Assembly: GCA_900617105.1 (NCBI GenBank)
Contig: UYFQ01000037.1
Location: 1 to 32,417, forward strand
Direction: 5' to 3'
Length of the DNA stretch: 32,417 nt
DNA from: Hydrurus foetidus
Lineage: Eukaryota
Shown: positions 1-29,226 of the stretch, in pieces
Layout: each line of letters begins with the position of its first letter
Position numbering within the stretch: position 1 is the stretch's first letter
Position numbers and translations under genes: made by a program
Notes under the pieces: model-generated
Told to the model about the DNA's origin: nothing
Databases searched by the model: none
The model's input: only the letters and a program-made list of their open reading frames with translations

Positions 1-508
1 TGTCAGTCCAGCATATTCATGCATGATCTGTTAGCATAGTTTCATCTGTAGATTAGCATTCACATGTCACAAGTAGTGTAGCGCTTCCTCACCCAAAACA
101 CCGCCATACACTGTTGTGTACATACGCTCATCGTTCTTCTAGCGATATCCCCCTTCGGGGCCATCACCAAGCATCCGGTTTTTCACCACCAAGCATCCGG
201 ATTTCCACCAGGTATCCGGTTTCCACCAAGCATCCGATTTCATGAGCAGCGAGGGTTCCGCCCATTGCTCAATCGCCAACTTGAATATTCGCTGAATATG
301 TTTCCACTTCGGCGATCACCATTTCATGCACAATGGATGCTTTGCTTTGCTTCTTTGATGGTTGTCTTCTCTGATATCATCGCCAGTTGTTTTACTACTT
401 GATCGTTGTAAGTAAACACGTCTTCCGAGACCACTTCCATCAGCCAGTCTTTCCTTTGCGCTTCCGCAGCCAACAGGTAGCTCGCTTCACTCCACAGTCT
501 GACTCACA
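1..508 (+). repeat. Copia A 5' LTR (508 bp)
   Basis: TGTCAG...GACTCACA; near-identical to 7341-7838 and 28719-29226. Confidence 0.97.
164..241 (+). repeat. Four imperfect ~19-21 bp tandem units (CACCAAGCATCCGG core) inside LTR A
   Basis: Units tcaccaagcatccggtttt / caccaccaagcatccggatt / tccaccaggtatccggtt / tccaccaagcatccgattt, present in all three LTR A copies. Confidence 0.85.
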
Positions 509-520
509 TGGTAGCGATTG
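509..520 (+). promoter_or_regulatory. Primer-binding site, probably tRNA-iMet type
   Basis: TGGTAGCG directly after the LTR-terminal CA; TGGTAGC is complementary to the GCUACCA 3' end of eukaryotic initiator tRNA-Met. Confidence 0.75.
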
Positions 521-598
521 CATAGAAAGTTCAGCAATCATCGATATAGTATCAATATATCAACGGTATCTCATCACAACAGATATCTCAAGTCGGCC

Positions 599-3500
599 AT
601 GATGCTACGATCGTCCGACAACACAGACCAAAACAACGAGGAATACCATGACCCAACTGGGCTAGAGACTCCCAGCCGCGCCCAGCTGCCGCGCATGCTC
701 TCCATGACCCTCGCAGAGTTCGATCAACGTGTCGCCGAGGCCATAAGAGCCCAAACTCAAAATTTGGTCACCAGCTCGACGGCAAATCGTCAAAATCCTC
801 GACACCAAACCGACCTCGACGAGGCTCCCATGCAGAGGAAGCCACGCCACCGCGCCAAACTTCGGCAGAAGTTTCAGCAAGTGGGCTATCATATAATGCC
901 GCGTTGGAATCCGTTTTGGAGCTCAAACGGCTAAAACTCGATCTCGTTCTGACGACCTCTTCAGAAATGGATAGCATCAAGCAAAACCAGATCACCACAA
1001 CGACTGTGGGATCTAACAAGCGCTTCAAAGCTCTCGACAACATGCTCCATGTCGTTGGACTCTACCCAATGGCGATGGGCACGCGTCGCGAGCCAATCCC
1101 AACGAGGCACAACCCATCAGGATACTCGGAGCCTACAACGTCGGAGAATCTTGACGGCACCTTCAATTATGTACCTGCCGACGATGTTACACGATGGGCC
1201 CACGACAAGAAACGTTTATACAACGTCATGTTGAACGCTTTCAGCGAGTCTACCCACTATCTATGTGCCGATTCCTTTACCTCTCGCGATGGGATCGCTA
1301 TTTATAAACGTATGCACAAGCACTACTACGGACATACTGAAGCAGACATCAACCGACTTAGGCGGCTTCTACAAAACTTCAAGGGCTCCACGGCTACTTG
1401 TTTTCAAGAGGATTTAGTGAGGTTTACAACGTTGATGACAGAATTCGAGTATGCCCAGGCCAGACCGAGCACCGAGCAGGAGCGCCTTCAATTCCTTCAC
1501 AACGCCTTCATGAACGACCACCGCCCCAACACCAAATCCTACTTTATGTCCTGCCATAGCAACATGCTCACCTATCACCAAACTTTGGAGAGAGCTGTTG
1601 TCTATTCCGAGTATGCCCTCCTAAGACAAGCCGGTCAAGATAGCTGCCTTGTCCACTACCCCTGAAGCCTGCCGCAAGTTCCTCGCTGGTACCTGCCTTC
1701 TCGGTAACAAGTGCAAGTACTATCATGCTCCTGCTAAGCCACCGGCAGCGACACCTCCCTCTGGCAAAGCACATCCTCCTGCCCCACCTGGATCCGCTCC
1801 AGTCACGGACAAGAACCGGATCAAAGCCAAGGGCAAGTACCCTCCCAAGCAGACCTTCCCAGTGACGAGTATCGATGGCCGCGTCCCTTACCTCAAGAGC
1901 AACATCCCCATGAAGCTTCTTACCAACGGACCCAACATCAACCCTGAGGACGGATGGCAGAACAACACGCTTTTGGATAACGCCGAACCCTCCGGGTATG
2001 TGCGCTTCTCCCTCAACATGTTCCGAGTCACCGACACTGACCCAGCACCTCCTCCGGATACACCGTCTAATCCTCCTCTCGAGTTAGCACTTCCGCCAGG
2101 ACTCCCTCCATCAGGACACTCACCACTGCGATCTCCAACTCGTCCATCTTCTAATGCCGCCTCTCCCTTAATGCTCCGACCGTACGTACGTTCCGAACAT
2201 ACTCAACCAGCATCTACCCCAGTACTCCTGGGTACCCCCCGACTCCTGTCGCCCCAGAGAATGCTACAGCATGGGACACGCCGCGCCATCAGAACATCTC
2301 CTCGCCAACATATGGGACCCCAATGCAAGAAGAAGTCGATGCCTTCACACGTACCTGGGCCTTCCTCACCAATGACGAAGTCACCTCCTCCACTGTCTTC
2401 CAGGGTATCTGCCGACAATGCTCCACGTACATCCTTCAGTACTACACTGTGGTCCACCACCGCATTCATCAGCAGCCCCTCTCAGCAAATGACTTCATCA
2501 TCTATGTGAACCGTCCCGCCTTGCCTGGATCCCCTACACCGGCGCCTCATATATACCTCGCTATTTTCGGCTGGGTATCCCCAACCACCCTCAGCAACTG
2601 CCGCGCTGATGTCAGAGACGGATACTCTCGGTATATGAACCTCATCCACAAGATTGCTCGCAACCTGCTGCTCGCCAACACTGAGCCGCCGACTCCACCC
2701 AATCTTGAGTATGACCCAGGGCACTACCGCACCTTCAATCCAACCTTGATTGAAGACATCACCACCTATCAGTCCACAGTCGGGAACATTTTCTTTTACT
2801 TCCTCGTCCACACTGCTCTGTACCTCGACGACCAGATCAGTCCAGACCACATGGCGATATTTGAAAGTGTCCTCATCTACGACTGTGCCTCCTGGGTCGC
2901 AGCACAGCTTGCCCGATATGCCAATGCACCCGGCAACTCCTGGCACAACATTCCCACTCTTCGCATACTCATGCTCACGGAAGTTGATGCACACGTTGAC
3001 GGTCTTATGACACGAACTGGATCGAACGAGTCATTCATCCAAGCTATTCGAGTCGTAATCCAGCATGTCCTACCCGACGCATTTCATGTTACACCCAACA
3101 GCCTCTTCGTCGGACCCGATCCTGTTGAACCCACCGAGTCACACTACCGCACAGTATCTCTCGCCAGGGACCTCGCAGCATCTACTGCCCCACAGAACAT
3201 ACGCAAACGATACACTTTGCGGAACTATGAGAGCGATTCAGAGTCCTCTGTCGAAGACTCCATCTGTTTCCTCCCGTACAACATGTCCTGTCCAACACAT
3301 AACATCAGTGGCCCTCGATGCGCCCTCTCTTATGTCAACTACCTACATGGAGCCGTCACACGTCTCATGGTCCCTCCATCAGACGCATCCCCATGGGTAC
3401 CACCGGACGCATCCATGGAACTTCAGCGGTACAACGCCAGGAAGCGCGGCATCGCATTCCAGAAAGACCAGGCTCAAGGGGACACTAAGCGTCAAGACAC

Positions 3501-4263
3501 TACCTCGTCCTCGTCAGCATCCTCTTCCGCCTCACCGTCAACATCGATTCCCACTACGCTTCCGGAGTTCAATACTCCGTTACCACCTGTTCCATCGACA
3601 CCCTCTGACCCTCTTACCGGGTCACTCAAACGTTGGCAAGCCGCGCAACCACTTGCATCCGACTCGCCTTTCACTATGCCTCGTGCCCAGCGCCACCGAA
3701 TGACTCCACCAGTCGGATCTCAACGCTCGACAAATGTCCGACATGCCTTCAACAGTACTCGCCCTCCGCTTGCATCAGCTCGCCCTCCTGCACCATCCGG
3801 CGGTACCTCCGACTCCAAGCTCAACACATTCGTCGTCAAGTCCCAACATGAGAGACTCAACTCGTTCCACGTCCCCGACAAGGTCATCTTCGACTCTGGT
3901 GCTTCACGCTCTGGCACCGGCCGCTCCCAACGTCTTACCAGCATTGAACCTGTCAGCACATCCGTCACAGTCACCCCTGCATTCGGTCCGTCCATGACAC
4001 CAACACACCAAGGCAGCCTCGGACCGTTGGAGCTTAGCACCCTCCTTCTCCCTGCACTAGGCGACAGCACCCTTGTCTCTGTCTCCCAGTTCTGCGCTGG
4101 CGGTGTCACCAACGACCACTTCATCGGCATCTTCACTCATAAAGACTTCCGCTTCTATGAGACTGCATCAGCCCTTCCCTACATTGCACTGGTAGCTCAG
4201 CATGGAAAGGAGGTCACCCGTGGAACCGTCCAAGACGGCCTCTACGTGGAGACTCCCTACTGA
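599..4263 (+). pseudogene. gag: Copia A Gag - CCCH finger - large insert - aspartic protease (~1220 aa reconstructed; three frameshifts in this copy)
   Basis: ORF pieces 518-934, 904-1665, 1649-2509 and 2323-4263 are joined into one frame by the +1, +2, +1 nt present in the 28719 copy; CCCH at 1670-1726; protease VIFDSGAS with DSG at 3892-3900. Confidence 0.9.
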
Positions 4264-7133
4264 CCAACCACTCGGGAGAGTCTTTTGGTCACACACTATA
4301 CTCCCGCTTCACTGTACGACCACGTGCATCAAGCCACAGGCCACCCCGGTCTTCCAGGCATGGCATGGCACCGCGATCATTCCCTCAATGCTCGCTTCAC
4401 CACCAAAGATGCACACACCTCCCGTCCGGTCTGTCCTGGATGCGCCCATGGCGCAATGCGTCAAGCATCCACAGACTATCGTCGCATCCACAGAGACACA
4501 ACTACCCTCGTCGGCCAGCAGTTCTCCTTGGATGCCTATACCCACTCGACTCCATCATTCCGTAACTACCGTTACACTCACATCCTCACCGACCTCGCGT
4601 CGGGACAATACTATCCTGTATATACAAAAGACCGGTCCGCCTCTGAACTCTGTGCCCGCATTGCAGCCTTCTTCGACCTAACCCCCAATGGAACCACAAT
4701 ACCCCTGGGGTTGATCGCTTCATCCGGCATGACCCAGAGGCCAACTACCGATCTGAAGAATTTACTGCGCTTTGCGCCCGATACCGATACCGACTTGAGC
4801 ACACTGCACCTCGTGACAAACATGCCAACGGCATCGCTGAGCGAGCAGTCGGCATTGTAGCTCTCAAGACAAACGTTGCCATGATAACCCCTGTTCCGCA
4901 TGTGCCAATGAAGTTCTGGGACCTTGCAATGTCCTATGCATGTGTTACTCATTCCTTTAACCTTAACAAGCGTATTGGTACTTCTCCGTATCACTTCACT
5001 TCTGGGCAACACGTGGACATCAGGATGCTTCGACCATTCTGGGCACCCTGCTATGTCAAGCACGCACCCAAAGATCAGAAAAGTAAAGTTGGGTCACCTC
5101 GTGCCTACCGTGCTCGGTTCGTTGGTTATAGTTTTACATCTATACTAGTACCACAATATTTAGTATTAGAAATACTACCCAAGAACACCTACGGTACTGT
5201 TCGAGTCAGTAAGGATGTCATCTTCGACATGCACAACAACTTCAAGCATGACTCAGATGCACACTTCCCTACCGACGAGGCCTTCGCCCTCATCCCGTCC
5301 CTCTACTATACTGATAATAATAATGACCCTATTGTGGTGCCTGAGCGAGTCGACCTACCCGGCCTCCCCTCACCTGCACCCCTTATCGACCCCGACTATA
5401 TAACCCCTGTCCCTGAGACAGAGCACTCAGTCAACGATGACATGATATACTGGTCCACCTACACCAGTTCTTCCACATGCTTCCCTGTTCACCTCTTCCG
5501 TGTCCTGCACTACAACATAGCAGTCCAAATCAAGGATCCCTACATCCCCAAAGACTTCTGGACCGCAATGCAGTACCCAGAGTGGGAACAGGCCATCAAC
5601 ACTGAGCGAACTAAGTTTGAAGTCAACAACTGCTTCCGGTCTGTTCCCTTCACCGGCCAGCACCTCGTACCAATGATGTGGCTCTTCAGTATCAAGACTG
5701 ACGGCACCAAGAAGGCCCGCCTCGTAGGTCGTGGTGATCTCATGATACCCTGGGTCGACTTCGACCCCTACGCAGTATACTGCGGTAATGTCAATGCGTC
5801 ATCGATCAAGATTGCACTCGTCATAGCCGCAACCTACAAATTATCCATGCGGGGAGGAGATTTAGTAGGCGCCTACTTAATCACACTCGCTAACCCCGAC
5901 TTTCCCGTTCACATCAAGACACCTCAAGGTTACACCACACCTTTTGGCACATGCTTTCAAGCCATTGGCAACCTCTACGGTTTTCCACCAGCAGGCCAGA
6001 ATTTCTCAAAGGAATTCGACAAATGTGTACGCGAATGTGGATACGAAAACACACCGTGGGACTTAAAGTTCTTCTTTAAGTGGGTCCAAGGTCAACCCCT
6101 GATACTGATAGCACACTCAGACGACTTCAGATGGTTCGGACCACTTGCACTCATTAGCGAATGGGATCTCCTCATCGCTACATTCAACTCCCACAAGTAT
6201 GAAGTCACCGACGCGACCTCCAAAGAGTTCGTCGGCATCCGCATTACATGCGATGCAAACTTCAACTACTACATGGATCAGTCACGCATGATCACATCCA
6301 TCGTATCGGAGGCCAACCTTGCTGGCGCCGCCGATGAGCATCTACCATATCCACCTTCTGGTGAGAGTCTGTCCAAGGCGGACAACTCTACCGATCTCGA
6401 TAGGCACATGTATAATAAGTATCCCTACCGACGGGTAGTTGGTCAACTTATGTACGGAATGGTACACACATTGATTACAATCATGTACGCGCTCAACATA
6501 CTATCCAGATATAGTAACAGTCCAGGTGCAAGACACATCAAGTTCCTTAAACACCTACTTCGATATGTCAAATACGCCAAGATGGATAGACTGAAATTCA
6601 CCACACACGACGGTCCCACCGACATCGCTACGATGACCAGTCTACTGCAGTTGAAGTTCCAATGCGACGCCGACCTCGCCGGTAACAAAGACAACCGTCA
6701 CTCCCAGACCTCCTACATTGGCTACCTCGCCGACAATGTCATCTGCTGGAAGAGTACCGACCAAGGCAGCATCTCATCATCAACTGCGGAATCCGAAATC
6801 AAGGCGGTTAATCACGCACTAAAATCCGATGTCATTCCCCTCCGGGGCATACTAAACCACATGGGATGGACACAAGCTCCTACAGTCATCGAAGAAGACA
6901 ATTCTGCTTGTGTTGATGCTTCAAATCATACACACATGACCAAGAACCTTCGTCACATTGACCTGAGCGAAAACTACTTTAAGGACAAAGTCGCCGATGG
7001 TACCTGTGTCATTGTTAAAATCCCTTCGGGCGAAAACAACTCAGACATAGGTACGAAAAGAGTTCCACTACCACTTTTCGAATACCTAACGCACAGGCTC
7101 GTTGACAAGTCTTTACGAACTAATATTAAATAA
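4264..7133 (+). pseudogene. pol: Copia A integrase - reverse transcriptase - RNase H (one frameshift near 4681)
   Basis: HQATGH...CPGC zinc motif; DDE residues in SLDAY / RHDPE / GIAERAV (last two in the shifted frame); KKARLVGRG; HSDD at 6114-6125; RNase H CDADLAG, STAESE, EEDNSAC, SDIGTK. Confidence 0.93.
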
Positions 7134-7319
7134 CATACATACTTAATATCCATATTTTTAACATACGTACTAATTTTACTATCTTATATGAGTGCACGCA
7201 TATATTATAACTAACTTTTTACACTTTTTGCCAAATCTCCCGTACGGGGAGTACATCCTCAGTACGGGGAGTATATATACACATATCATTCATTTCGATA
7301 CTCTCAATAACACGTTCAG

Positions 7320-7340
7320 CTACATCTTCACTACGGGGAG
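7320..7340 (+). promoter_or_regulatory. Polypurine tract GGGGAG with conserved upstream motif
   Basis: CTACATCTTCACTACGGGGAG abuts the 3' LTR; identical in Copia C (26880-26900, minus strand). Confidence 0.85.
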
Positions 7341-7838
7341 TGTCAGTCCAGCATATTCATGCATGATCTGTTAGCATAGTTTCATCTGTAGATTAGCATT
7401 CACATGTCACAAGTAGTGTAGCGCTTCCTCACCCAAAACACCGCCATACACTGTTGTGTACATACGCTCATCGTTCTTCTAGCGATATCCTCCTTCGGGG
7501 CCATCACAAAGCATCCGGTTTTTCACCACCAAGCATCCGGATTCCTACCAGGTATCCGGTCTCCACCAAGCATCCGATTTCACGAGCAGCGAGGGTTCCG
7601 CCCATTGCTCAATCGCCAACTTGAATATTCGCTGAATATGTTTCCACTTCGGCGATCACCATTTCATGCACAATGGATGCTTTGCTTTGCTTCTTTGATG
7701 GTTGTCTTCTCTGATATCATCGCCAGTTGTTTTACTACTTGATCGTTGTAAGTAAACACGTCTTCCGAGACCACTTCCATCAGCCATGCGCTTCCGCAGC
7801 CAACAGGTAGCTCGCTTCACTCCACAGTCTGACTCACA
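7341..7838 (+). repeat. Copia A 3' LTR (498 bp)
   Basis: Matches 1-508 with a 10-bp deletion (gtctttcctt) and a few SNPs. Confidence 0.97.
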
Positions 7839-10800
7839 ATCAGAACGGAGTTGGAGAGGTGCACCGAAACGACCGAAATGTTGCAAGAGGCATTGAGCAG
7901 TCGAAAGTGCCGAAGCATCTTTAGTATGAAATAGCTCAACCCACCTTGTGAACGTATCGATTATAACGAGTACGTACCCGCCGTCTGGAAACTGTCCTAC
8001 GAAGTCTATGTTAAGGCACTCCATAGGTGTGTAAGTAGAAGTCGAAAAGCCATCAGCATGAATAGGGATCTTTAACATGCTCATCTTTTGACAACACGAA
8101 CAGTGATCTATGAACCACCTGACATGCTGTCGTTGAAACTGCCGCACCTTGTTGTTGTCTTTGAGACGCTTTAAAGTGCGCTCAAGACCAAAGTGACCAA
8201 CTTGTGAATTGTGTACGTTACTTATACTCTTGTATTGTTCACGAGTTAGTTTGAACTTTTCAATAATATCCGCAGACATGATTGTTTCAAGTAAATATTC
8301 TTGAGGATGGTCAACCATGTTGTTGCGACATCGAATCGGCTATATCATTGTTAACACCAGAAATGAATTCAATTTTAAATGAGAATTCTGAGAAGGCCAT
8401 AAGCCAACGAACAATAATTGGATGATGGATAACAAGTTTCCATGATCGGTACGTGAAGTAAACATTCGATCACGTATTAGCGATTTTAAATACGTGCACG
8501 CAAAGAAAACAGCATTTGCTTCTCTCTGTAGAACTACCCAACGAAGCTGAGCTTTGTTAAGCGATTTACTAACAAATACTACGGGCGTCTCTCTCCCGTC
8601 AACTAACTGAAAAAGATAAGCACCTACACCGTAATCCGATGCATCAGTGTGCAAGTAAATCGGATCGGTGTCACTTAAAAAGTGCATTGTCATGCATTTT
8701 GCAGTCTCAGATTTAATTAACTCAAATACTGAGTCAGCTTCTAGTGTCCAAACTATTTTTTTAGATTTATTATAATCAACAAGCTACTGGTGTAACGGAT
8801 ATAATACACTAGAAGCATTTTTGATGAAATCGTGAAAATAGTTCACCATACAAACCTAAAAAACTTTTAAGTTGTTTAGATATATCTGATTTTGAGAAAT
8901 CTAAAACTTGCTGTATTTTTTCATGTGACATTTTTAGTCCCTCAGCAGAAAGGACTTTGCCAACATAATCAATTTCGGAATAGCCAAGATAACATTTATT
9001 TGGTTTCAAAAATATTTTATGTTGTCGAAAGCGTTGAAAAACAAAGCGGAGTCTGAAAACTAATTCATCAGAACAGTGCAATTCATCAATGTACATTTCG
9101 CATATAGTGTAAATCAATCCAGCTAGTACAACAGTTGCCATGGTCTGTTGGAAATAAGAAGGAGCTCGTTTAGGCCCAAAGGGCAGACGAGTGAATTGAT
9201 ACACGCCACAGAAAAGTATGAATGCAGTGTATGCGCGTGCTGGAAGTGTAAGTGGTGCTTGATGATATCCTTGAGTGTGATCAAGTGTAGCGAAGACTAG
9301 CTTTATGAGCACCAATTCGACATAATATTTCATTTATGTCCGGAATGGGCCATGATGCATCTTCGGTACAATCATTCAGGTTCCGATAATCTATACAAAT
9401 GCGCTTGGTTCCATCAGATTTTGGAACCATATGCACTTGGCTGTAATTAGCCGCATTTTATTTCTCGATATTCCCTTGCTCTTCAAATTTCGCGAGTTGA
9501 CGTATAATGTCAGCTTGATTTGCAGTGGATTGAGGTGGATAAGGTGTTCTATTACGGGAGACTTTCCATTTTACGTCATCCACGTCAAGTTCATACGGTG
9601 GGATATCAGCAGGGCTATCTGAAAGCTCACTGCAAAATATGTTCCTAAACTCGTTACATAGTGAACGAAGTTTATTTTTCTGCTATTCATCACCTGCTAT
9701 GTGTATTAGCGAGAGTGAATCTGCATCATTAATCCACGGTGAAAAGGTGTCATTTAATGAATCATCCATTTCATCTTCATCAGGCGGCACAACTCCAAAT
9801 AGTTGTTCCGACTCTTGAATTAATGAAGCTAGTATGACATGTGTTTGGGTGACTGATCATTCATTTCGGTTAATGGAAGATCTTTAGGGGTTCCCTCAGA
9901 GATTTGCAAAGTCTCCTCAGGCTGACAGCCACATGTCAAAACCACATCTTCAGAAGTCTAGACTCCCTTTATTGGGGTCGGTCGCGATAAAGTGATAGAT
10001 TTTATTTGATCTGGGAAAATCGAGAATAGATCTAAATCTCGTATTATTTTTCTTCCCACTATTAGATCAATTTATGTTTGTTCTAGAACATAAGCTGTGA
10101 TTTCGAAAGAAAATAAATTATTTAACTCAGGTAAAAAATAAAAAAGGTTTAAGTCTATGGTTTGAGAAATTTCATAACAATGATTATCTAAACCACTACA
10201 AACTGTACACGCTTTTTTAGATGATTTAGAAACGTGTTGTGTTAAGTTGAGGTTTTTATAACACGCCTAGCTATGAAGTTGCTGGCGATAGATCCCGTGT
10301 CCAATAGAGCGAAGACTTTATTTTTCTCTTCCAGCGAAGTTTGCTGAGAAATATGAGAAATATGATGTCCATCCGATGAAACGGAAGGATTGTCAATTGA
10401 CGACATATTAAGGTTGTAAACGTAGTCACCTTTTTGTTTCTTCACGACACGAGTAGTGTCTGCTGACGGAGCAGCGGTCTTAGAAGACGCGGAAGAAGAG
10501 GAAGAAGAGGAAGAAGACGACGATACTCCGTACGCATTTAGAACACACGTCGCTTTGGGATCGATCTTCAAAAGATCTTTGCCTCCTTCCGATTGAAGGA
10601 AAGGTTTTTCGGTACTGTTAAAGTACGGAGAAGAGTTGAAACGACAAGTGGCTACTAAATGGTCAAGTCTCCCACAACCGGTACAGTGGGGTCTGTCGAT
10701 TGCGCAGGCTTCTTGTTGCCGTCCTCTTGTTGCCATTTTTTAATTTGCGGCTCCTGAGGAGGACGATTAGAATTTTGATTTGGCGAGAATGATCGCCATA

Positions 10801-11450
10801 TGTCGGGTGAAAGTCTACAAACCATAAAGCATCAACTGCTTCTCGTAGCTTTCTTAGTTGCGCACGCCACATGAATCGAAAATCATCGACCGTGATAAGG
10901 CATGGCGTTCTATTAAGAGTGCGGTACAAAACTGACCTCCAATTAATGGGTTCAGCTGGCAACTGATCATTAAGAATTTAAGTTGCTGTTAACTGCATGG
11001 CAGCTGAAACATCAGGGAATGCATCGACAATATCAGCTAAAAGCTGATCTGTCTTTTCTTCCACTGATGAATTCTTCGGGTCAAATTAAATTTGGACCTG
11101 AGTAATGGATTCAATGAATCCTAATTTATCAGTTCTGGACGTAGCAGTTGCAGGAACTGCCATCTTCAATCCTCTACAAAAATTCTCATTAGTCCAGTTT
11201 CTCCAGTTGTTACAACTGTCTCAACGATCAGGGTCGGTGGCAAATCGAAGTTACAAAAGAGTTTTAAAAGATTGGAAGTTGCTGTGATGAACGACATCAA
11301 CTGGCCGAAACGGCGTTCCATTCGAGAGGAGAACCTCTGAAACTCTTTAAACTTCTTGCCAAGACGGCTTGGCGCTCAACTTAGGAGCTTTCTCACCAAC
11401 TTACACAGACTGAGTTGGTCTGTGCAAAAGCACAACTTGCACAACGTGCC
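7839..11450 (-). pseudogene. Gypsy G1 middle part: gag (CCHC), protease, RT, RNase H, N-terminal integrase; decayed
   Basis: CTGCGRLDHLVATC, LLDTGS, RLPFGPK, YID(D) damaged by a deletion, HTDASDYG, HNSQVGHFG, LNIDFVG, LRSD cut by Copia A; collinear with G2. Confidence 0.93.
10487..10523 (-). repeat. GAA/GAG microsatellite encoding poly-Ser in G1 gag
   Basis: gaagaagaggaagaagaggaagaagacgacg on the plus strand; SSSSSSSSSSS in ORF 10242-10736. Confidence 0.7.
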
Positions 11451-11881
11451 TGTCAGACCACTTGATTCTATCAAGATATGTCTTTAGTAATATAGTTGCA
11501 AATATAGTTTCAAATATATACATGCACGTTATGCGACACGTACGTACGTAAGTACACATGCAGATATGATAACACGCAGACGTACACACGTACTTACACA
11601 TGTTAGTGCATACTCATTTATGCATACGTACACACATGTACTTACACATGTACATACATAGTCAATATGTACCTACGTACGTACGCACGCATATAGCATA
11701 GCGTACACTTGTATGGTCACGCACACACATACATACGTACGTGCACATGTTATTACAAATTATTATATGCATACGTACACACACGTACTTACACATATAT
11801 GTACATATATAATATGTACGTATGTACGATCGCCAATAGCGTAGTACATAGATGTATAGGCGTACATACGTAAGTACCACT

Positions 11882-12028: not shown

Positions 12029-12179
12029 AACCCTCTGACCTCACGCAAATGAACGTTCGCCTTTCATGATTCTTCAGTATCGCCAGAACACTTCGTTACT
12101 ATAAGCATTCATGCAACGTTCCTCAAGCACATGCTATGAACAACACATCTTGCTGTGAACTTTGTCTCGAGGTAGTTTC

Positions 12180-12506
12180 TGTAGTAATATCAGTATTATG
12201 TAGACTAGATATTCCGTATACGAATTGTGATGCTATTGAACCACACGTACGATGTTGCACCAGCGCAGTACCGTACTACATACGATTGAACCAGATTAGC
12301 TACCTACTCTTTGAAACAACTACCAACCGAACTCGATAACTACTGTATTGCAGCAGTGCTAATTAACCCAATCTCGTAGCCGATACCAACTCTTCTCTTG
12401 CAAACGAATTGCGACGAGTAAAGAGCCCTCGGAGAGAGCAGTGGGGAGCTTGTGACCAGCCGTACTGGCACATACGTATGCCCTTGTGAGACCACTAATC
12501 ACAACA
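12180..12506 (+). repeat. Copia B 5' LTR (327 bp)
   Basis: TGTAGT...ACAACA; matches the 3' LTR apart from a 17-bp deletion. Confidence 0.96.
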
Positions 12507-12517
12507 TAATTAGCACT
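12507..12517 (+). promoter_or_regulatory. Candidate self-priming PBS of Copia B
   Basis: TAATTAGCACT is the exact reverse complement of AGTGCTAATTA at 12355-12365 in the LTR; no TGG tRNA PBS present. Confidence 0.7.
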
Positions 12518-12545
12518 TCATAGATTGCAACAAGAAGCTGCAACT

Positions 12546-13670
12546 ATGAAAGGGCGTGGAAACCCTCCACCACAAGGACGTGGTAAAGGAGGAGGATATT
12601 TTGGTAATCGTGGCAGAGGAGCTGGCGCTAACAACCATCTTAGGGGAAACATTTCGACTATCGGAACTTACTTAGATTTACAACCGGGAAAGGACATTGT
12701 CCCTGGTACTGTAACTAAGTTTATGGGAAAAATGAAAGAGCATGCGATGACAACTTTGAAGTCCAAAGTTAGCCTTATATTCGGTGCAGACGGCACACTT
12801 GGAGACTACCCAGTGTTAGCCATACCACCACCACCTGGGGAAGGAGCAACTCAGGATGAGAGGGACATCTGGAAGTTAGAGCGAGTAGAATACATCAAAG
12901 CTCGAACAAAATTGGAGGAGGACAAGCAGAACCTATACGGTGCAATGGTCGGACAGATGTCTGAGAATTCCAAGATCAGAGTGAAGGAAGTTACCGTAGG
13001 AGTTTAGGCCGATTCCGAGCAGGACCCTCGGAAACTAACGCAAGCCATCCTTGCAACTCATGTCGGAGATTCGACTCTTGGAGCAGAGCATCAAATGCAC
13101 AACATCCAACAACGATACGACCATCTAGTGATGCTACCTCACGAGCATCTGAGTACGTACCTGACCAACACCAAGTCTGCACTCACCGCTATCCAACAAG
13201 CTTTTGAGGCGGCTGGCAGGACGGAAATAGATGAGCTATATCCTGAGGGCAGGATGGCAGTAAAGTTTATTCTGGGACTGAATAATAACTATTCAGAGTT
13301 CAAAAACTTCTATATCAACAACTTGAAGGTGTGGCCAAACACCCTCGAGGAATCTTACAACGAGGCGTCGAAATTCAAACTGACGAAGGTTTTGAATAAC
13401 TCACCAGCTGCTATGGAACGCGCCAACGCTTTCTCAATGACTGGGAGAGGCGGCAAAAGTGGCAGAGGAGGATACCCCGGAGGACACAACGGGAAGAGCG
13501 CACCTGGCGCTAAGTGGGTGAAGGACGGAGCCGCTTCACCCGACAGCATGAGCAGCGAGAGAGGATCTCCTGCAGCTTCAGCAGCAGTTTATACTGCATC
13601 AGCCACTCCACCTAAGGGATACAAGCGGGGACCTTGTAACAACTGTGGGAAGTTTGGACACCTGGCATAG
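12546..13670 (+). pseudogene. gag: Copia B Gag (RG/RGG-rich ends, zinc knuckle), frameshifted near 13005 and broken at the knuckle
   Basis: MKGRGNPPPQGRGKGGG; KFILGLNNNYSEF; CNNCGKFGHLA* (truncated CCHC). Confidence 0.85.
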
Positions 13671-13814
13671 AGGAAACGCCGCAGACATCGTAGCACAGTA
13701 CTGGAATGAGGAAGGCGCGAGGAGCCCAGGAGGAAAATCGAATACAGCACCCGGCAAAGGAAAGGGAAAGTAAGTCTTTCACGTGATTGTTTACATGATG
13801 ACATAGATAGCGAT

Positions 13815-16800
13815 GTGAATAATAATGTGGCTAGTGTTGTAGACAAAAATGTTAAACACGTACGCATATCTAATATTGTACAAATAAAATTTATAGATGA
13901 CCAAGAATCCGTGATGGACCCCATAGCAGTAGATAGTAATGTATTTAGCATAGACATCACAGACTACCCTGATGCGTTTGGTGATGATCAATTGTTGCTT
14001 GATACATGCGCGGGCGAGTCTGTATTTAGAACTAGTACACTGTTCTATGACATTGTGCATGCCCCTACACCCATGGTAGTTAATGGAGTAAATAGTAGAG
14101 GAGAGCCAATGGTGATCACAGAGCGCGAAATGACGGACTTCGGACTAGTATACTACGACCCTAATTGTATAGCAAACATTCTATCCTTTGCAAATATGGT
14201 AAATAACTGTCACTCGGTGAAGTATATTAGTAAAGTAGATTTTTACAGTTTGCAAATTATAGAAGGAGGATGCTGTTATTACTTCAATAGGGATGTTAAA
14301 AGTAACATTTACATATGCGATCTGAATACAATGGTAAGTAAACCCAAACTTATGTTAGTTACGACTGTTAATGACAAGACAAAAAAGTACACAGTTAGGC
14401 AAGTAAAACAGGCTGAGTTAGCTAGAGAGTATCAGAGGAAATTAGGTTACGTTAGTCCAGGTCAGTTAGTTCAGCTGATTGGACAAGGTAAACTAGTTAA
14501 TAGCAACATTACAACACAAGGCGTAGTTAGGTCGTTAGATATCTGGGGTCCTGACTTGGGCTCCCTAAAGGGAAAAACGCCAAGCCATCAGGCACAGGTG
14601 GAAGAAGAGCAGCCGTTGATAGATAACATTCAAGATTTAATCCAGATAATGTACATAGACATAATGTTTGTAAACGGCAATCCATTTTTAATTGCCGTAG
14701 TAAAGCCATTAGAATATGTTGTGGGGAATAAGTTAAATAATAGAGCTAACCTTACACTGTGGACTAGCCTAGAGAGTGACATTAGACATGTTACTAAGTA
14801 TGGATTCAGACTAGACCTAGTTAGAGTTGATGGCGAAGGTGCGATCAATTCAGTATGGTTTGAAACCAAGCTAGCTAGTATAGGTACTGCATTAGATACG
14901 ACAGGTGCAGGAGAGGCAGTCACAGTAGTTGAGCGTAAGATAAGGCAGATTAAAGAGAGAGTCAGAGCAGTTATTAACACATTACCTTTTAAGTTAACCG
15001 AAAAACTAGAAGGATGGTTAGTTAGATATGCTGTTAACCGTATAGTGTTGGTTCCGACTAGGAACACTGTTGACTATGTTAGCCCTAGGGAAAAACTATA
15101 CGGTAGAAAAATTAACGTAAATAAAGAACTGAAACATGGTTTTGGTGACTACGTTCAAGTACATTCTGATAACATTGATAACAGTAACAAAGCCAGAACT
15201 TCAGGTGCCATTGCTCTAATGAGTGCAGGCAACTTTGAGGGATCTTGGTATTACATGTTACTCAATAACGAACAAATAGTTAAACGTACAAAAGCCACAT
15301 CATTACCCATTCCTGATGAAGTTATTTCTTACATTAATGGATTATCTGAAAAGAGAAACATTAACAAAAGTAATAATGCTAGTCAACCTATATTTGAACA
15401 GAATAAGCGTGTAATAGTTGATGATGGACTTGACTATGATGATGAAAATATATATGACAAAAATATGCGTAGATTCAGCCATGCAGTGACACCTAATACA
15501 GATGAAATGTACGATGATTCATAAGTCGATGAAATGAACGTACAGCATGATGCACCCGTTCCATACACAATGAACGACATAAACAACATTGATAACATAC
15601 CCGATGTATCTGACATGAATGATATGAGTGACATTAATAATAAAGATGATTATGACTACACACAGCTTGAAACTGATGACGTGAATATTGAAACAGTTGA
15701 GTATGACGATACTTTGACTGAATATTATACACCTAATGTTGATGATGTGCACAATGAACATGAAGTACTTACACCTTATCAACTATCCGATGTTACTGAT
15801 GATACGTACGCCGTTGATGATGTACTTACTGATGCACTGCCTGAGATAGAACAGCCTGCTCTGAGACGTAGCGCTAGAAATCATCAACCAGGCAGATGGG
15901 TTCCTAGGAGAGGAAATTACACTATAAGATGTAGTGCTATGAATCATGCACTATCCACCAATTTTTCATATGCTTTCAACATGACCGTTAAAGATGGCAT
16001 TGATAAGTTAGGCAATATTGCTGTAGATTCCATTAGAAAAGAAATGCAGCAGATGTGTGAAAAAGATGTTTGGGAGGGAGTGTTGATTAGCTCTCTTAGC
16101 CAGACTCAAAGAAGTAACATCATAACTAGTAGCATGTTCTTAAAGGATAAGTATACGGCGGACGGTAATTTTGACAAGCTTAAGTCTAGATTAGTAGCAG
16201 GAGGCCACTTACAAGACAGAGATATATATGACAATGGATCTTCACCAACTGTTAGTACTACTAGTGTGTTTATTGTTGCCTCAATTGCTGCCCATGAACG
16301 TAGATCGATTGTTACTATTGATTTTCCTGGTGCATTTTTGAATAGCGACATGCCTTTAGAGGGCACTCACACTGTGTATATGCGACTGAATAAATATTTA
16401 AGTGGAGTGTTGACATAAATTGATAAATCATATATTAAATATGTTAATGATAAAGGCACATGCATTGTTAAACTGAAAAAAGCATTGTATGGGTGTGTAG
16501 AATCTGCTAAATTATGGTATGATAAAATCTCACATGACTTATTATTATTAGGGTATACCGTTAACCCTTATGACATATGTGTATTTAACAGAACTGAATC
16601 AAATAATAAACAAACCACACTAATAATTCACGTTGATGACATGATGATCACATGCTGTGATGAAAAACGTGTTGATTATGTTATTGACGAAATTGAAAAA
16701 CTATACCCTGGTCTAACAAAACATCGAGGAAAAGTACTTAATTACATAGGTATGACGTTTAATTTTGGGATGGCGGGAAAGATTATTATAACCATGGAAG

Positions 16801-17588
16801 GATTCATCAAGGAGCTGCTAGAAGACTGTAAAGGAATTATAGGGGTGTCACCGACACCGGCTAAGACGGATTTATTTTCGGTTTCACCCGAAACTTCTAA
16901 CCCATTGTTAACCACTTCTGCGCGTGAATATTTTCACTCCATAACAGCCAAGTTGCTTTATCTCAGCAAAAGATCGAGGCCGGATATTCTAACGCCGGTA
17001 GCCTTCTTAACTAAGAGAGTAACCAAGCCCCAGACGGATGATATGAAAAAACTGGAACGTACCGTACAGTACATACGTGGTACTCGAGACTTAGGCCTCA
17101 CCCTTACAATTGGCGATCCAATGACTGTCATCAGCTACATTGATGCATCATATGGGGTCCATCAAGACATGAAGAGCCACACCGAAAGCACCATCACCCT
17201 TGACAAAGGATCCATCTATGCAAAAAGCTCCACTCAAAGACTTACCACCAAGTCGAGCACAGAGGCAGAGTTAGTGGGACTTAGCGATTCTGCGAATCAA
17301 GTACTATGGACCAGATACTTCATCATAGCTCAAGGATACACCAACAGACCAGCCATCATATTTCAAGACAATAAATCCACTATCCAACTTATCACCAACG
17401 GGAGATCGAACAGCGAACGGACAAGACATATCGACATCCGGTACTTTTTTCTCACCGACCGGATAAAAGAAAACGAAATTAATGTGACCTATAAACCTAC
17501 AAATGAGATGTCAGCAGATATGCTGACAAAACCCCTTCAAGGCGAGCAGTTCAGAGATCATCGAAACTTACTACTCAACATCACCTGA
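13815..17588 (+). pseudogene. pol: Copia B protease - integrase - RT - RNase H with in-frame TAA at 15522 and 16416
   Basis: LLLDTCAG; YIDIMF / RVDGEG / VVERKIR (DDE); KSRLVAGG; IDFPGAFL; HVDD at 16629-16640; YIDASYG, SSTEAE, QDNKS, ADMLTKPL. The three ORF pieces are in the same frame. Confidence 0.93.
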
Positions 17589-18124
17589 GTATTCCACTCT
17601 GACATTTTTCTTCTACCTGCGCTTTGCCAACACCTTTCTACTACTTCGGCCAAAATCAACCCTATGTATTATATGAATCTGTTTTTATGAATCTGCAATT
17701 CCAACGAATTCCTGCTGCCCTACAACATCAACCTCCAAGACCCGAACACTCAAGATACTTACACACGAGCCTACACCACACATGGTCGAGGTACATTAGC
17801 TGAAGACCCATCATGACGAAGACTCCAGCACAAACATTCCTACAATAAACTATTTCTAACCGCAAACTCTGCCAAATGCCAACTTCCTTCTATAACCGAC
17901 AATTCCAACAGCCAACTATTTCTAACAACTATAAATTCCTACAGCAAACTTCTACCATATTCCTTTCCGACTGAGATCGATTTTCAAGACACTGACGTAA
18001 CATTCCGGAGCCATTGATGAAACTTTATTTATGATTAATATTGAATGAACATGTATGAATTGATTTAACGCTTTTGAAATAATAATTGAATAAACCTGTT
18101 TGAGTTGAATACGATAACACATCA

Positions 18125-18132
18125 TAGGGGTG
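18125..18132 (+). promoter_or_regulatory. Short PPT of Copia B (TAGGGGTG)
   Basis: G-run immediately upstream of the 3' LTR. Confidence 0.6.
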
Positions 18133-18476
18133 TGTAGTAATATCAGTATTATGTAGACTAGATATTCCGTATACGAATTGTGATGCTATTATCTGTATTT
18201 CATATTTGAACCACACGTACGATGTTGCACCAGCGCAGTACCGTACTACATACGATTGAACCAGATTAGCTACCTACTCTTTGAAACAACTACCAACCGA
18301 ACTCGATAACTACTGTATTGCAGCAGTGCTAATTAACCCAATCTCGTAGCCGATACCAACTCTTCTCTTGCAAACGAATTGCGACGAGTAAAGAGCCCTC
18401 GGAGAGAGCAGTGGGGAGCTTGTGACCAGCCGTACTGGCACATACGTATGCCCTTGTGAGACCACTAATCACAACA
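18133..18476 (+). repeat. Copia B 3' LTR (344 bp)
   Basis: TGTAGT...ACAACA followed by TSD GTTTC. Confidence 0.96.
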
Positions 18477-18665
18477 GTTTCACTGTCATGAACTGTTCCG
18501 ATAGCTCTTTTGCGTGGCTATCTGTAAACTCTAATCAGAATTTAATACGTTGTACTTCACAGCTTCGTCTACTCGATAGCTCACTGAATTGAGACAGTAG
18601 CCTGCAGCTGCTTCTCCACCTTCGCTGCGAACGCTAGAAGGTGACATCTTGTATTTAGCCTTACA

Positions 18666-19062
18666 GTGCCAAAGCAAATTCATTAGCAGATCTATCGACC
18701 GAAGTCAACGTGAGCTCAGCCGAAGCTGTTGTCGCAGCCGAAGCTGGTATCGCAGCCGAAGCTGGTGAAATTGATAAGGCAGACAACGCAGAAATGACAG
18801 GCACATCAATAGCAGACGCGACCGCAGGCCCCGACGTCGGCTGAGACGCCGGCGCAGACAGGTCTCTGGCGGGGTCCTGAATCGCAGGTGATCCGGGAGA
18901 CTCTATGTCTTGGACGTTGCGCTGCGTATGCTCCAGATACGCTTTCCGTGCTGCGATGGCGATAGCGCGAGGCTGAGCTCGTCTTAAGATGGCGCTGGTG
19001 TTTTCGGTGGTGTTGGAGGTTGCCTAAGCAGAGGCTTTGGCACGGATACGGCGAATTGCCAT
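18666..19062 (-). pseudogene. gag: Gypsy G1 gag N-terminus (continues near 11445 once the solo LTR is removed)
   Basis: MAIRR...LRRAQPRAIAIA...ESPGSPAIQDPARDLSAP...DVPVISALSALS aligns with G2 MALRR...LRRKQQPRAVAVA...ESPGPPAAQDPAGDLSAP...DIPVISALSALS; one TAG stop; 3 x 18-bp repeat at 18717-18767. Confidence 0.85.
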
Positions 19063-19138
19063 GCTCCAAAAAATTTCCCGAGAAGAGATGGAAGAATAGA
19101 AAGAAAGAATTTTGGTCGTAGGAACCAAATATCGATAT

Positions 19139-19403
19139 TATGATCGTTGGTGACCTGAGGACGTTGGACGAGGACGATGGGCGAGGACGGAGGACGAAAG
19201 ACGAAGACAGAGAACGTGGAAGAGTATTCTTATAGATTACAGCGAGAAACAAGCAGTAGTATCTACAGTGATGTGCACTCGCGTGGAAACGAAACGAAAA
19301 GAAAACTGTACCGGACTTCGGGTCCGTTCTAGAATCTACAGTACGGGTATAGTATACAGTCACAGTGTATCCGTACATACAGTACAGATGCAGTGAGGCT
19401 ACA
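19139..19403 (-). repeat. Gypsy G1 5' LTR (~265 bp; inner end inferred)
   Basis: Starts TGTAGCCTCACTGCATC like the G2 LTR (TGTAGCCTTATTGCATC); ends GATCATA versus G2 GACCACA, before the shared ATATCGATATT. Confidence 0.7.
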
Positions 19404-19752
19404 CCAACGTGATCGTTCATGTCTCCAATCATTCTAGATCATTTTACTATCTTATGTCTAGTCACATCATTGGTGAAGGCGATCAAAAGAAATTTGGGCA
19501 TTTTGCGTGTATCATAGTCATTTTCAAAAAATTTGAAATAATTTTAACAGTATTTTTGGAAATTCAACACCTCCAGCCTTATGGTTTATCGCAGCTACTT
19601 GGTGAACGGCTAGTTAGTAGAATAGATTTGTGCCATTAAACACTCCACTTAAATCATTCGTTAGTTTTAACCCGGATCCCTGCAATTCTGGAGCCATATC
19701 ATTTGACCTTTCTCCATATAGAGGTGGAACCAGCATAAAGGTTTATCCCCCA

Positions 19753-20060
19753 ATATGAACGTATACGCGTAAGTACAGTGGCACTCACGTATGGACGCCC
19801 ATACATCTATATACTACGCTACAGGCGATCGTACACACGCACATATTCACTATATACGTACATGTGTAAGTACGTATGCGTACGTACGCAGAAATGAGTA
19901 TGCACTAACATGTGTAAGTAAATGTGTACGTGTTCGTGTTAGCATATCTACTTATGTACTTACGTACGTACGTGCCGCATAACGCACACGTATGTATTTG
20001 TGACTACATTTGCAACTAAATTGCTACAGAAATAACTTGATAGAATCAGGTAGTCTGACA
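19753..20060 (-). repeat. Diverged, truncated Copia C-family LTR
   Basis: TGTCAGACTACCTGATTCTATCAAG... homologous to 11451 onward; lacks one internal segment; no PPT upstream. Confidence 0.85.
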
Positions 20061-20755
20061 CTGGGGTAAACCAGGCTATCATTACTAAAGCACCCAAAAG
20101 GGCTACAGATGTGTATGATGAGCCGAAAGTGGTGTGGGTTGTGGTTGTTGAAACCGTCCGTATGTCGTATGTACATTACGGTACTGCGCGTGCAATTGAT
20201 CGTACACTGACTGAAGATGAAGCCAGAACTGTGAATTGCATTTCCTTCTCATCAATTTTGATAATATTCCATAGAGCATTCCCTCACTATTCCTCCTCTG
20301 CCAACAACACCTCATAAATCTGAAATTCAAAGAATCAGAATGGAGCAGAAGTGTTATTGTAAGTATCACAGTTGTATCGACAGTGATTAGGTCAGATAAA
20401 TGAGAGGACTGCAATGCATTAAACAAGATTAGTAAACTCAGATGCGTCTCAAAAATGATCGGACCTCTGAACTGTTACAAGAAAATTTTCAAAACTGAAT
20501 GAAACGCTGTTTAAGAGGCTAGTGAATTTTTTCTATCTATCACAACTTCTTGGTGAGTACAGCACAACTCTCACAATACGAACTGTTAACTTTTGACCCA
20601 ATAAAAATCGTACTAATATACATCTGGTACTATTAAAAATTGTTTTTACTTTGTAGAACACTTTACTGTTTAATATGAATCTATAATTTCAATGTGGACT
20701 TCGCACTTATCCAATCTGATGTTACAGTGAGAAACTGTTTTAATTGTTTTTTCTC

Positions 20756-26088: not shown

Positions 26089-26193
26089 AACTTTGACGTG
26101 ATGGATAAAGTTGGGAAAGAGTCGAAGGTAAAAGTTGGAAAAGAGAAAAAACTTTCTCGGAGGAAACTTCGGTAGATGACCGAATATCGATAT

Positions 26194-26456
26194 TGTGGTC
26201 TGACGGCGGGGCCTAGGACGGAAGGCGAAGTTCGAGTAGGCGGAGGACAGAAGGCGTGGACAAACGAAGGCGAAGTCGAGGAGAAAAAGACTTGTGTTAA
26301 TATCTTACAGTTAAATAGATGAAGGTGATGTGTACGCTAAGAGCACTCACGTCATATATGGGACTAAGACCTAAACTGGAATCTGGGCATAATGAGCCTA
26401 TTGTACCTAGTAAACCTAGACACATTGTATCCATATAGGGATGCAATAAGGCTACA
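26194..26456 (-). repeat. G2 5' LTR (263 bp; inner end inferred)
   Basis: TGTAGCC...GACCACA with imperfect terminal inverted repeat; outer end defined by the break in LTR C homology at 26456/26457. Confidence 0.75.
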
Positions 26457-26879
26457 GTATGTACGCCTATACATCTATGTACTACGCTATTGGCGATCGT
26501 ACATACGTACATACTATATATGTACATACATGTGTAAGTACGTGTGTGTACATATGCATATAATAATTTGTAATAACATGTGCACGTACGTATGTATGTG
26601 TGTGCGTGACCATACAAGTGTACGCTATGCTACATGCGTGCGTACGTACGTACGTAGGTACATATTGACTATGTACGTACATGTGTAAGTACATGTGTGT
26701 ACGTATGCATAAATGAGTATGCACTAACATGTGTAAGTATGTGTGTACGTCTGCATGTTATCATATCTGCATGTGTACTTACGTACGTACGTGTCGCATA
26801 ACGTGCATGTATATATTTGTAACTATATTTGCAACTATATTACTACAGACATATCTTGATAGAATCAAGTGGTCTGACA
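26457..26879 (-). repeat. Copia C 3' LTR, first 423 bp (cut by G2)
   Basis: Reverse complement matches 11451 to about 11869; preceded by PPT GGGGAG. Confidence 0.92.
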
Positions 26880-27011
26880 CTCCCCGTAGTGAAGATGTAG
26901 TGTAAAATAATGCATGTTTACTTATGAGCTACCTTTATAATATTAGAATCAACATAGTATATGTGTGATCAAGACAAATACAATATTAAAACATAATTAG
27001 TATAGTGCTGT

Positions 27012-28718: not shown

Positions 28719-29226
28719 TGTCAGTCCAGCATATTCATGCATGATCTGTTAGCATAGTTTCATCTGTAGATTAGCATTCACATGTCACAAGTAGTGTAGC
28801 GCTTCCTCACCCAAAACACCGCCATACACTGTTGTGTACATACGCTCATCGTTCTTCTAGCGATATCCCCCTTCGGGGCCATCACCAAGCATCCGGTTTT
28901 TCACCACCAAGCATCCGGATTCCTACCAGGTATCCGGTCTCCACCAAGCATCCGATTTCACGAGCAGCGAGGGTTCCGCCCATTGCTCAATCGCCAACTT
29001 GAATATTCGCTGAATATGTTTCCACTTCGGCGATCACCATTTCATGCACAATGGATGCTTTGCTTTGCTTCTTTGATGGTTGTCTTCTCTGATATCATCG
29101 CCAGTTGTTTTACTACTTGATCGTTGTAAGTAAACACGTCTTCCGAGACCACTTCCATCAGCCAGTCTTTCCTTTGCGCTTCCGCAGCCAACAGGTAGCT
29201 CGCTTCACTCCACAGTCTGACTCACA
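28719..29226 (+). repeat. Copia A 5' LTR, copy 2 (508 bp)
   Basis: TGTCAG...GACTCACA followed by TGGTAGCG. Confidence 0.97.

What the first reader, a model, noticed from the sequence alone, without database searches (positions are those of the whole stretch)
12355..12517. Candidate tRNA-independent self-priming in a Ty1/Copia element
Seen: Copia B's 5' LTR ends at 12506 (fixed by the LTR pair and TSD). The next 11 nt, TAATTAGCACT, do not start with TGG and are the perfect reverse complement of AGTGCTAATTA at 12355-12365, mid-LTR, beginning at the A of a C-A-G-T initiator-like site. Pairing stops at both ends. A chance match is about 327 x 4^-11, roughly 1e-4 with uniform bases (somewhat higher for AT-rich DNA). 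The intervening R-U5 has stems (TTGTGA/TCACAA 12484-12504, CATACGTATG, CCAG/CTGG). Established: S. pombe Tf1 and Tf1/sushi Gypsy elements prime with the first ~11 nt of their own mRNA, annealed to the PBS and cleaved by RNase H; Copia elements are known to use tRNAs or tRNA halves. Inference: this CoDi-like Copia self-primes, which I do not know to be described for Copia.
Basis: partly seen in the sequence, partly recalled or inferred. Interest (0 to 1): 0.92.

Follow-up and report, generated by a model that had tools for sequence, protein, structure and literature searches.

The report
Self-priming Copia retrotransposon lineage
This broken Copia-type jumping gene, like most of its distant relatives in aquatic DNA, has a primer site that pairs perfectly with a piece of its own terminal repeat and lacks the usual tRNA-type start, so the lineage likely begins copying itself with the front end of its own RNA, a trick proven only in an unrelated fission-yeast element.

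Summary
Observation confirmed. The 5' LTR ends at 12506 (TSD GTTTC); the next 11 nt exactly complement 12355-12365 (chance about 1e-4). The feature is lineage-wide: 41 of 53 relatives (41-58% RT/RNase H identity) have a perfect 9-25 nt complement of their own LTR starting at a CA taken as the LTR end. At 10 nt or more, 27 of 35 loci pass against 0.2 in shuffles. The letters differ between families (41 distinct 9-mers of 42), which excludes a shared tRNA. In 32 of 42 the upstream arm starts at the A of a CA, initiator-like (background 11%). Best reading: Tf1-like self-priming (0.85); start site, cleavage and priming are inferred, as no reads could be had. Correction: self-priming was already predicted for a Copia lineage, plant TAR (PMC6317226), so this is probably a further lineage, not the first Copia case. 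Unlike Tf1: variable primer length, and no support for the flanking 'pretzel' duplexes. CoDi membership and host were not established. This scan has noted the same feature before on other DNA (32 notes, at least 6 genomes).

The parts
12175..12179 (+). 5' target-site duplication GTTTC
12180..12506 (+). 5' LTR (TGTAG...CAACA), 327 nt; U3 predicted 12180-12354, R-U5 predicted 12355-12506
   Evidence: LTR pair and TSD; the U3/R border is inferred
12355..12365 (+). Predicted self-primer: first 11 nt of the RNA, starting at the A of a CA
   Evidence: exact complement of 12507-12517; same position relative to CA in 32 of 42 elements
12484..12504 (+). Small predicted U5 terminal hairpin (TTGTGA/TCACAA)
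   Evidence: MFE and centroid fold; U5-end pairing is not above shuffles across relatives
12507..12517 (+). Primer-binding site position, TAATTAGCACT; no TGG
12518..12550 (+). Predicted hairpin directly 3' of the PBS that covers the gag start codon (ATG 12546)
   Evidence: not tested in relatives
12546..17588 (+). Single-frame gag-pol in Copia order (zinc knuckle 13635, protease 13995, integrase 14658-14960, RT 16182-16640, RNase H 17136-17530), broken by 5 in-frame stops at 13005, 13668, 13707, 15522, 16416
   Evidence: motif labels recalled; Pfam RVT_2
18126..18132 (+). Polypurine tract AGGGGTG, the clade's motif AGG[GA]G[TC]G directly before the LTR's TG
18133..18476 (+). 3' LTR, 344 nt; extra 17 nt at 18189-18205; second copy of the primer arm at 18325-18335
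18477..18481 (+). 3' target-site duplication GTTTC

Best explanation
This is a defective Copia LTR retrotransposon whose primer site pairs exactly with 11 bases inside its own LTR, and it belongs to a large lineage that likely primes reverse transcription with the predicted 5' end of its own RNA instead of a tRNA. Steps: (1) transcription would start at the A of a CA initiator at 12355 (inferred); (2) the first 11 nt fold onto the site just after the LTR (complementarity shown; duplex predicted); (3) the element's RNase H would cut after the last paired base, as in Tf1 (inferred by analogy); (4) RT would extend the freed 3' end into U5-R, giving a 141-nt strong-stop DNA with an 11-nt RNA primer (predicted); (5) plus-strand synthesis would copy the primer back into the primer site each cycle, which would keep the match perfect while letters and length drift (inferred).
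For: Perfect own-LTR complement of 9 nt or more starting right after a CA in 41 of 53 relatives. At 10 nt or more: 27 of 35 loci against a shuffle mean of 0.2, maximum 1 in 30 rounds. With the LTR end called blind from the PPT and terminal inverted repeat: 21 of 34 at 9 nt or more, 18 of 34 at 10 or more. L064, whose end is fixed by two LTR copies, has 14 nt. 41 distinct first 9-mers among 42; only 4 of 1722 cross-element matches, 2 of them between sister elements. L011/L012/L013 (one cluster at 80% RT-RNase H identity) have different 19-, 21- and 25-nt arms; sisters L004 and L035 differ by a change on both sides. The arm starts at, or 1 nt after, the A of a CA in 32 of 42 (30 of 38 after dereplication) against 11% background. 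Duplexes end sharply: G.U at the first break in 2 of 42, pairing never resumes for 3 or more bases. No TGG primer site at a plausible LTR end among 34 (2 chance TGG hits at other candidates). In-window control: Copia A has TGGTAGCGA and only 4-6 nt of self-complement. Post hoc lead: the first unpaired base 3' of the primer site is C in 20 of 42 (about 9.5 expected, P 2e-4 to 5e-4; 18 of 38 dereplicated, P about 1e-3), as copying of an mRNA cap would give (mechanism recalled).
Against: No RNA evidence: start site, cleavage and primer are unobserved (one search gave no runs). The host tRNA set could not be searched (no genome; no tRNA in the window). 12 of 53 relatives missed the 9-nt rule; most lack the LTR or have an altered end, but L076 has a clear CAACA end and no arm, and L073 is unexplained. 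The flanking duplexes that Tf1 needs (PMC10085805) are not above shuffles (mean z -0.09 and -0.18 over 38). In one search the LTR end was chosen as the best-scoring CA, so that count is not blind; the blind count is lower. This element has T, not C, after its primer site, and its initiator match is partial. This copy carries five stops, so it cannot make its own RT.
Confidence: 0.85

Rival explanations
1. The site binds a host tRNA or half-tRNA (for example half-tRNA-Ile as in Bianca), and the match inside the LTR is incidental.
For: Half-tRNA priming is known in Copia lineages (Bianca 92% half-tRNA-Ile; PMC6317226). From recall, window 12356-12363 resembles the anticodon arm of a eukaryotic tRNA-Ile; no call tested this.
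Against: Primer sites differ across the clade (41 distinct 9-mers of 42) and each matches its own LTR, not others'; up to 25 perfect nt; only 12 of 42 fit even a loose anticodon-loop pattern. In this element the base after the would-be anticodon is T where tRNAs have a purine (recalled).
Confidence: 0.04
2. The duplex is real but serves another purpose (closing the R-U5 domain, translation control, packaging or dimerisation through the TAATTA palindrome), with priming done elsewhere or by another primer.
For: TAATTA is palindromic; the first 5 primer-site bases are loosely conserved (N-A-A-T-T) and resemble the fungal GalEa hairpin site CTAATTAGT (PMC5445492). The Tf1 flanking duplexes are not supported.
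Against: The duplex starts exactly at the LTR end and extends past the terminal A in only 1 of 42, which is the geometry priming needs; no other primer site was found; purely structural helices usually tolerate G.U and mismatches (general knowledge), and these show perfect runs; many relatives have no palindrome.
Confidence: 0.07
3. Self-priming occurs, but in trans or by another cutter: the primer comes from a second RNA copy, a short capped transcript, or a host nuclease rather than in-cis RNase H cleavage.
For: Primer length varies 9-25 nt and the Tf1 three-duplex structure is not supported; a pyrimidine two bases after the arm in 39 of 42 hints at a sequence-guided cut.
Against: [quoted passage not shown] This is a variant of the best explanation and shares its sequence evidence.
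Confidence: 0.15
4. Chance match or assembly artefact.
For: Many relatives come from collapsed metagenome contigs read across their joined ends.
Against: The window's own element has two LTRs and a TSD; shuffles give 0.2 of 35; linear contigs L037, L072, L077, L078 and L064 show it without any joining.
Confidence: 0.01

Closest known systems
Tf1/Tf2 of Schizosaccharomyces pombe, Tj1, Tosmo and the Tf1/sushi group (Ty3/Gypsy chromoviruses)
   Same: Primer site directly after the LTR's CA, perfectly complementary to the first bases of the element's RNA; 11 nt in Tf1 and in this element; no tRNA site (PMC7175516, PMC10085805, PMC4600332; passages).
   Different: This element has Copia domain order; primer length in the clade is 9-25 nt; the two flanking 'pretzel' duplexes are not supported; nothing is shown experimentally here.
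TAR lineage of plant Ty1/Copia (Houba, Osr-1)
   Same: Copia superfamily; 5-bp TSD; single gag-pol frame; self-priming predicted from a complement of 10 nt or more in the 5' LTR, in 89% of 203 elements (PMC6317226; passages and Additional file 5).
   Different: TAR is described from plants; these relatives come from aquatic metagenomes and score weakly on Pfam RVT_2 (43 bits). Kinship could not be tested by tree because the reference file was too large to read.
CoDi (CoDiI/CoDiII) Copia of diatoms
   Same: Divergent Copia RT, TG...CA LTRs, size within 5.2-8.1 kb (PMC2806351, sections 6, 7, 18); the nearest atlas cluster of the Gag piece lists Bacillariophyta, phylum known for 1 member only.
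   Different: The main text of that paper has no occurrence of tRNA, priming or Tf1; its Additional file 1 on structural features could not be seen. Membership untested.
Fungal GalEa Copia with the Conserved Hairpin Site (CHS)
   Same: No tRNA site; an A/T-rich palindrome right after the LTR (CTAATTAGT shares TAATTAG with this element) (PMC5445492, section 10).
   Different: CHS is fixed in sequence and pairs with a partner 12-41 nt downstream, and the authors found no complement in the LTR; here the partner is upstream in the LTR and the letters vary.

Membership tests
Ty1/Copia LTR retrotransposon | LTR pair with TG...CA ends and TSD | tested here: met
Ty1/Copia LTR retrotransposon | Order protease-integrase-RT-RNase H and a Copia-type RT | tested here: met
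   motif order (labels recalled); Pfam RVT_2 E 5e-11
Tf1/sushi group | Ty3/Gypsy chromovirus phylogeny and domain order | tested here: not met
   Copia order and RVT_2
Tf1-type self-priming (mechanism) | Primer site abutting the LTR, perfectly complementary to an upstream LTR stretch | tested here: met
   41 of 53 relatives
Tf1-type self-priming (mechanism) | That stretch is the 5' end of the RNA | tested here: inconclusive
   indirect only: CA at the arm start in 32 of 42 against 11%; no reads
Tf1-type self-priming (mechanism) | Three-duplex 'pretzel' structure | tested here: not met
   flanking duplex energies equal shuffles: 2 and 3 of 38 below z -1.64; a crude test
Tf1-type self-priming (mechanism) | RNase H cleavage frees the primer | not testable with these tools
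   needs biochemistry
TAR lineage (plant Copia) | RT/RNase H/integrase tree placement within TAR | not testable with these tools
   reference FASTA too large
TAR lineage (plant Copia) | Own-LTR complement of 10 nt or more, starting 0-5 nt after the LTR | tested here: met
   11 nt at offset 0
CoDi (diatom Copia) | RT tree placement with CoDiI or CoDiII references | not testable with these tools
   no named CoDi protein among the 240 listed hits or the 6 clusters opened
CoDi (diatom Copia) | Diatom host | tested here: inconclusive
   atlas hint resting on 1 member; no genome
Fungal GalEa (CHS) | Complement of the post-LTR 9-mer 12-41 nt downstream | tested here: not met
   the exact complement occurs only at 12357 and 18327
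tRNA-primed Copia (TGG site) | TGG within a few bases of the LTR end | tested here: not met
Half-tRNA-primed Copia (Bianca, Osser, FunCo1) | One conserved site matching an anticodon arm across the lineage | tested here: not met
   41 distinct 9-mers of 42; the host tRNA set itself was not available

The most novel reading that the evidence does not exclude
A large, old Copia clade of aquatic protists invented tRNA-free self-priming independently of Tf1/sushi and of plant TAR, in a simpler form: one duplex, no pretzel, a primer of freely drifting length (9-25 nt) set by the distance from the initiator to an A/U-rich cut site, with the primer site rewritten from the capped primer each cycle and leaving a cap-copied C as a fossil mark of the start site.
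Probability: 0.5. Interest if true: 0.72.

Novelty: new variant of a known kind. Interest (0 to 1): 0.58.

Why it matters
Self-priming is proven only for Tf1 (Gypsy) and predicted for plant TAR Copia. A further, very diverse Copia clade using it would mean that dropping the host tRNA has arisen repeatedly and that a Copia RNase H can make the cut. The many natural primer/primer-site pairs of 9-25 nt give ready-made compensatory series for testing what the cut requires. The arm also predicts the exact transcription start of each family, and annotation tools that demand a tRNA site will miss or mis-score these elements.

Tried and rejected
No whole genome was held, so other copies and host tRNAs could not be searched. 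No sequencing runs were obtained, so the start site is untested. Viral contigs held no relative. ARAGORN found no tRNA in the window. Tf1-type flanking duplexes: not above shuffles; a duplex I suspected by eye between 12393-12404 and 12526-12538 was not supported (z -0.8 for this element). TATA-like box 18-40 nt upstream of the arm: 1 of 42. Named CoDi or TAR references for a tree: none obtained; the tree (quick method, unfinished careful search) only shows spread within the clade, and Copia A is too distant to root it reliably. An alternative genetic code for the five stops is unlikely: all three stop codons occur. The primary Tf1 paper on primer retention (PMC1563812) was not held, so cap copying rests on recall; PMC11042837 passages confirm only single-stranded ends and non-templated additions in Tf1 cDNA. 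An oomycete FPR-like explanation of the arm's A/T-rich end was considered and left open: the motif follows the arm's end, not a fixed distance from the CA.

Full report
Observation. The element spans 12180-18476. Its LTRs (12180-12506 and 18133-18476) have no substitutions and differ by one 17-nt stretch; the TSD is GTTTC. The 11 bases after the 5' LTR are the exact reverse complement of 12355-12365, with no extension either way and no other match in the window except the 3' LTR copy. The composition-based chance is 1.0e-4. The coding region is one frame, 12546-17588, in Copia order, with five internal stops, and matches Pfam RVT_2. The fold of the predicted 5' RNA holds the duplex (z -2.76; mean pair probability 0.95). 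Copia A in the same window has a TGG-type site and only 4-6 nt of self-complement.

Relatives. The RT/RNase H piece found 3258 longer relatives. An alignment of 40 of them fetched 78 metagenome loci (the best 80 of 495 confirmed in a scan that stopped early) and 23 contigs that sit in prokaryotic genome bins. Many contigs are collapsed elements with a single LTR between the end of pol and the start of gag; contigs with overlapping ends were read as circles. Of the first 78 loci, 35 gave such a region (those without an RNase H hit or a downstream ORF within 1250 nt were dropped, and L007, L042, L076 were set aside at that step). Of these 35, 27 have a perfect complement of 10 nt or more starting right after a CA, against a mean of 0.2 and a maximum of 1 in 30 rounds of dinucleotide shuffles; at 9 nt, 31 against 1.4.

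Blind test. The clade has a fixed PPT motif followed by TGTTG, so the LTR end can be called from the terminal inverted repeat without looking at pairing. 34 of 101 loci were usable; the single blind end gave 9 nt or more in 21 of 34 and 10 or more in 18 of 34. Several blind misses had a hit at another candidate end. L064, where two LTR copies fix the end, has a 14-nt complement. Pooling all regions and taking the best CA (not blind), 41 of 53 relatives reach 9 nt. The 12 misses, judged by eye: L020, L030 and L071 have 10-17 nt arms but an altered LTR end; L070 has 8 nt; L034, L047, L080, L087 and L098 appear to lack the needed part of the LTR; L067 runs into flanking DNA; L073 is unexplained; L076 has a clear end and no arm.

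Covariation. The relatives are 41-58% identical to this element in RT/RNase H, and 38 of 48 clusters at 80% identity carry the trait. The first 9 bases of the site are distinct in 41 of 42 elements, and only 4 of 1722 cross-comparisons match another element's LTR. L011, L012 and L013 fall in one 80% cluster yet have different 19-, 21- and 25-nt pairs; L004 and L035 differ by a change on both strands. A single external primer cannot explain this.

Is the arm the RNA's 5' end? Only indirect evidence. The arm begins at the A of a CA in 22 of 42 and one base after it in 10 of 42, against 11% background, mostly in contexts such as TCACT and TCATT, close to the oomycete initiator YCAYTYY (PMC3599244, passages). 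This element's GCAGT is a partial match. The distance from arm start to LTR end is 99-223 nt. At the inner end, pairing reaches the LTR's last A in 20 of 42 and its C in 1 of 42; the base opposite that C is a pyrimidine in 39 of 42. At the outer end pairing stops sharply (G.U in 2 of 42, no resumption), and the first unpaired base after the site is C in 20 of 42 against about 9.5 expected. Copying of a cap by RT would give such a C (recalled, not from a call); the test was post hoc and this element has T there. A search of this scan's notes for that idea returned 0.

Mechanism. Tf1 pairs the first 11 bases of its RNA with the primer site, and RNase H cuts between bases 11 and 12 (PMC7175516, passages). 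The same geometry is seen here. I put self-priming at 0.85. Shown: the complementarity, its position, its covariation. Inferred: start site, cut, extension, and recopying of the primer into the site. Against a plain Tf1 copy: Tf1 needs two further duplexes (PMC10085805, passages), and a duplex-energy test found none above shuffles in 38 dereplicated elements (mean z -0.09 and -0.18); primer length varies 9-25 nt.

Comparison with print. PMC6317226 (passages and Additional file 5) predicts self-priming for 89% of 203 TAR Copia elements and cites an earlier proposal for Houba and Osr-1 (that source not seen). So self-priming in Copia is already proposed, though the evidence that paper gives is sequence complementarity. 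PMC5445492 (passages, section 10) describes fungal GalEa without a tRNA site but with a downstream hairpin and no LTR complement. PMC2806351 (abstract, passages, sections 6, 7, 18) defines CoDi and has no word on priming in its main text; its supplement could not be seen and may bear on novelty. PMC3601003, PMC4600332, PMC5341516, PMC11042837 and PMC12786077 were seen as passages only. Ten searches (five of them aimed at self-priming or primer sites in Copia, diatoms or stramenopiles) listed no paper that reports self-priming in a protist Copia, judged from listings and the passages read; subscription journals, Repbase and GyDB were not covered.

Identity of the clade. Named CoDi or TAR sequences could not be obtained, so neither membership nor independence of origin was tested by tree. 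The atlas gave a weak Bacillariophyta hint (1 member with known phylum). After my own analysis I looked at this scan's earlier notes: 32 findings in at least 6 genomes describe the same feature, several calling the host a diatom; they are unchecked and were not used as support.

Verdict. Real, lineage-wide, and most likely Tf1-like self-priming; a new variant of a known mechanism rather than a new kind. Interest 0.58.

Noticed in passing
window 12180-18476: The LTRs have 0 substitutions over 327 nt, yet the coding frame has five in-frame stops and no frameshift; the copy may have been moved in trans while already dead.
   Followed up: partly
window 1-7838 and 28719-32417: Copia A (two copies, 99% identical) has a tRNA-type site TGGTAGCGA at 509; its RT/RNase H is only about 20% identical to Copia B and has unusual motifs (HSDD in RT).
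   Followed up: partly
window 7826-11397, 18742-20062, 22175-26879: Nested Gypsy-type remains on the minus strand (RVT_1, RT_RNaseH at 22727-23932); Copia B and an inverted LTR-like repeat (11451-11869) appear to interrupt one copy. Their primer sites were not resolved.
   Followed up: partly
window 7320-7350 and 26870-26900: Copia A's PPT and LTR start (CTTCACTACGGGGAG then TGTCAG) match, inverted, the sequence before the LTR-like repeat at 26879, whose LTR is otherwise different: a related Copia family fragment.
   Followed up: no
L007 1-55 and 5415-5469: The same LTR end and 17-nt primer site plus 2 bases lead into two different gag-like sequences; the shared stretch stops 2 nt after the primer site, as a switch at plus-strand transfer would give (or an assembly branch, the overlap being exactly 55 nt).
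   Followed up: partly
L079-L101: 23 contigs of this eukaryote-type Copia clade sit inside prokaryotic genome bins, probably as binning contamination; one relative carries a WP_ accession under a bacterial name.
   Followed up: no
relatives L002-L094: The clade has a very short, near-fixed polypurine tract, AGG[GA]G[TC]G, ending in a pyrimidine-G before the LTR's TG.
   Followed up: partly
window 12507-12513: TAATTAG is shared with the fungal GalEa hairpin site CTAATTAGT, and the clade's primer sites begin loosely N-A-A-T-T; fungal GalEa might use a related tRNA-free route.
   Followed up: no
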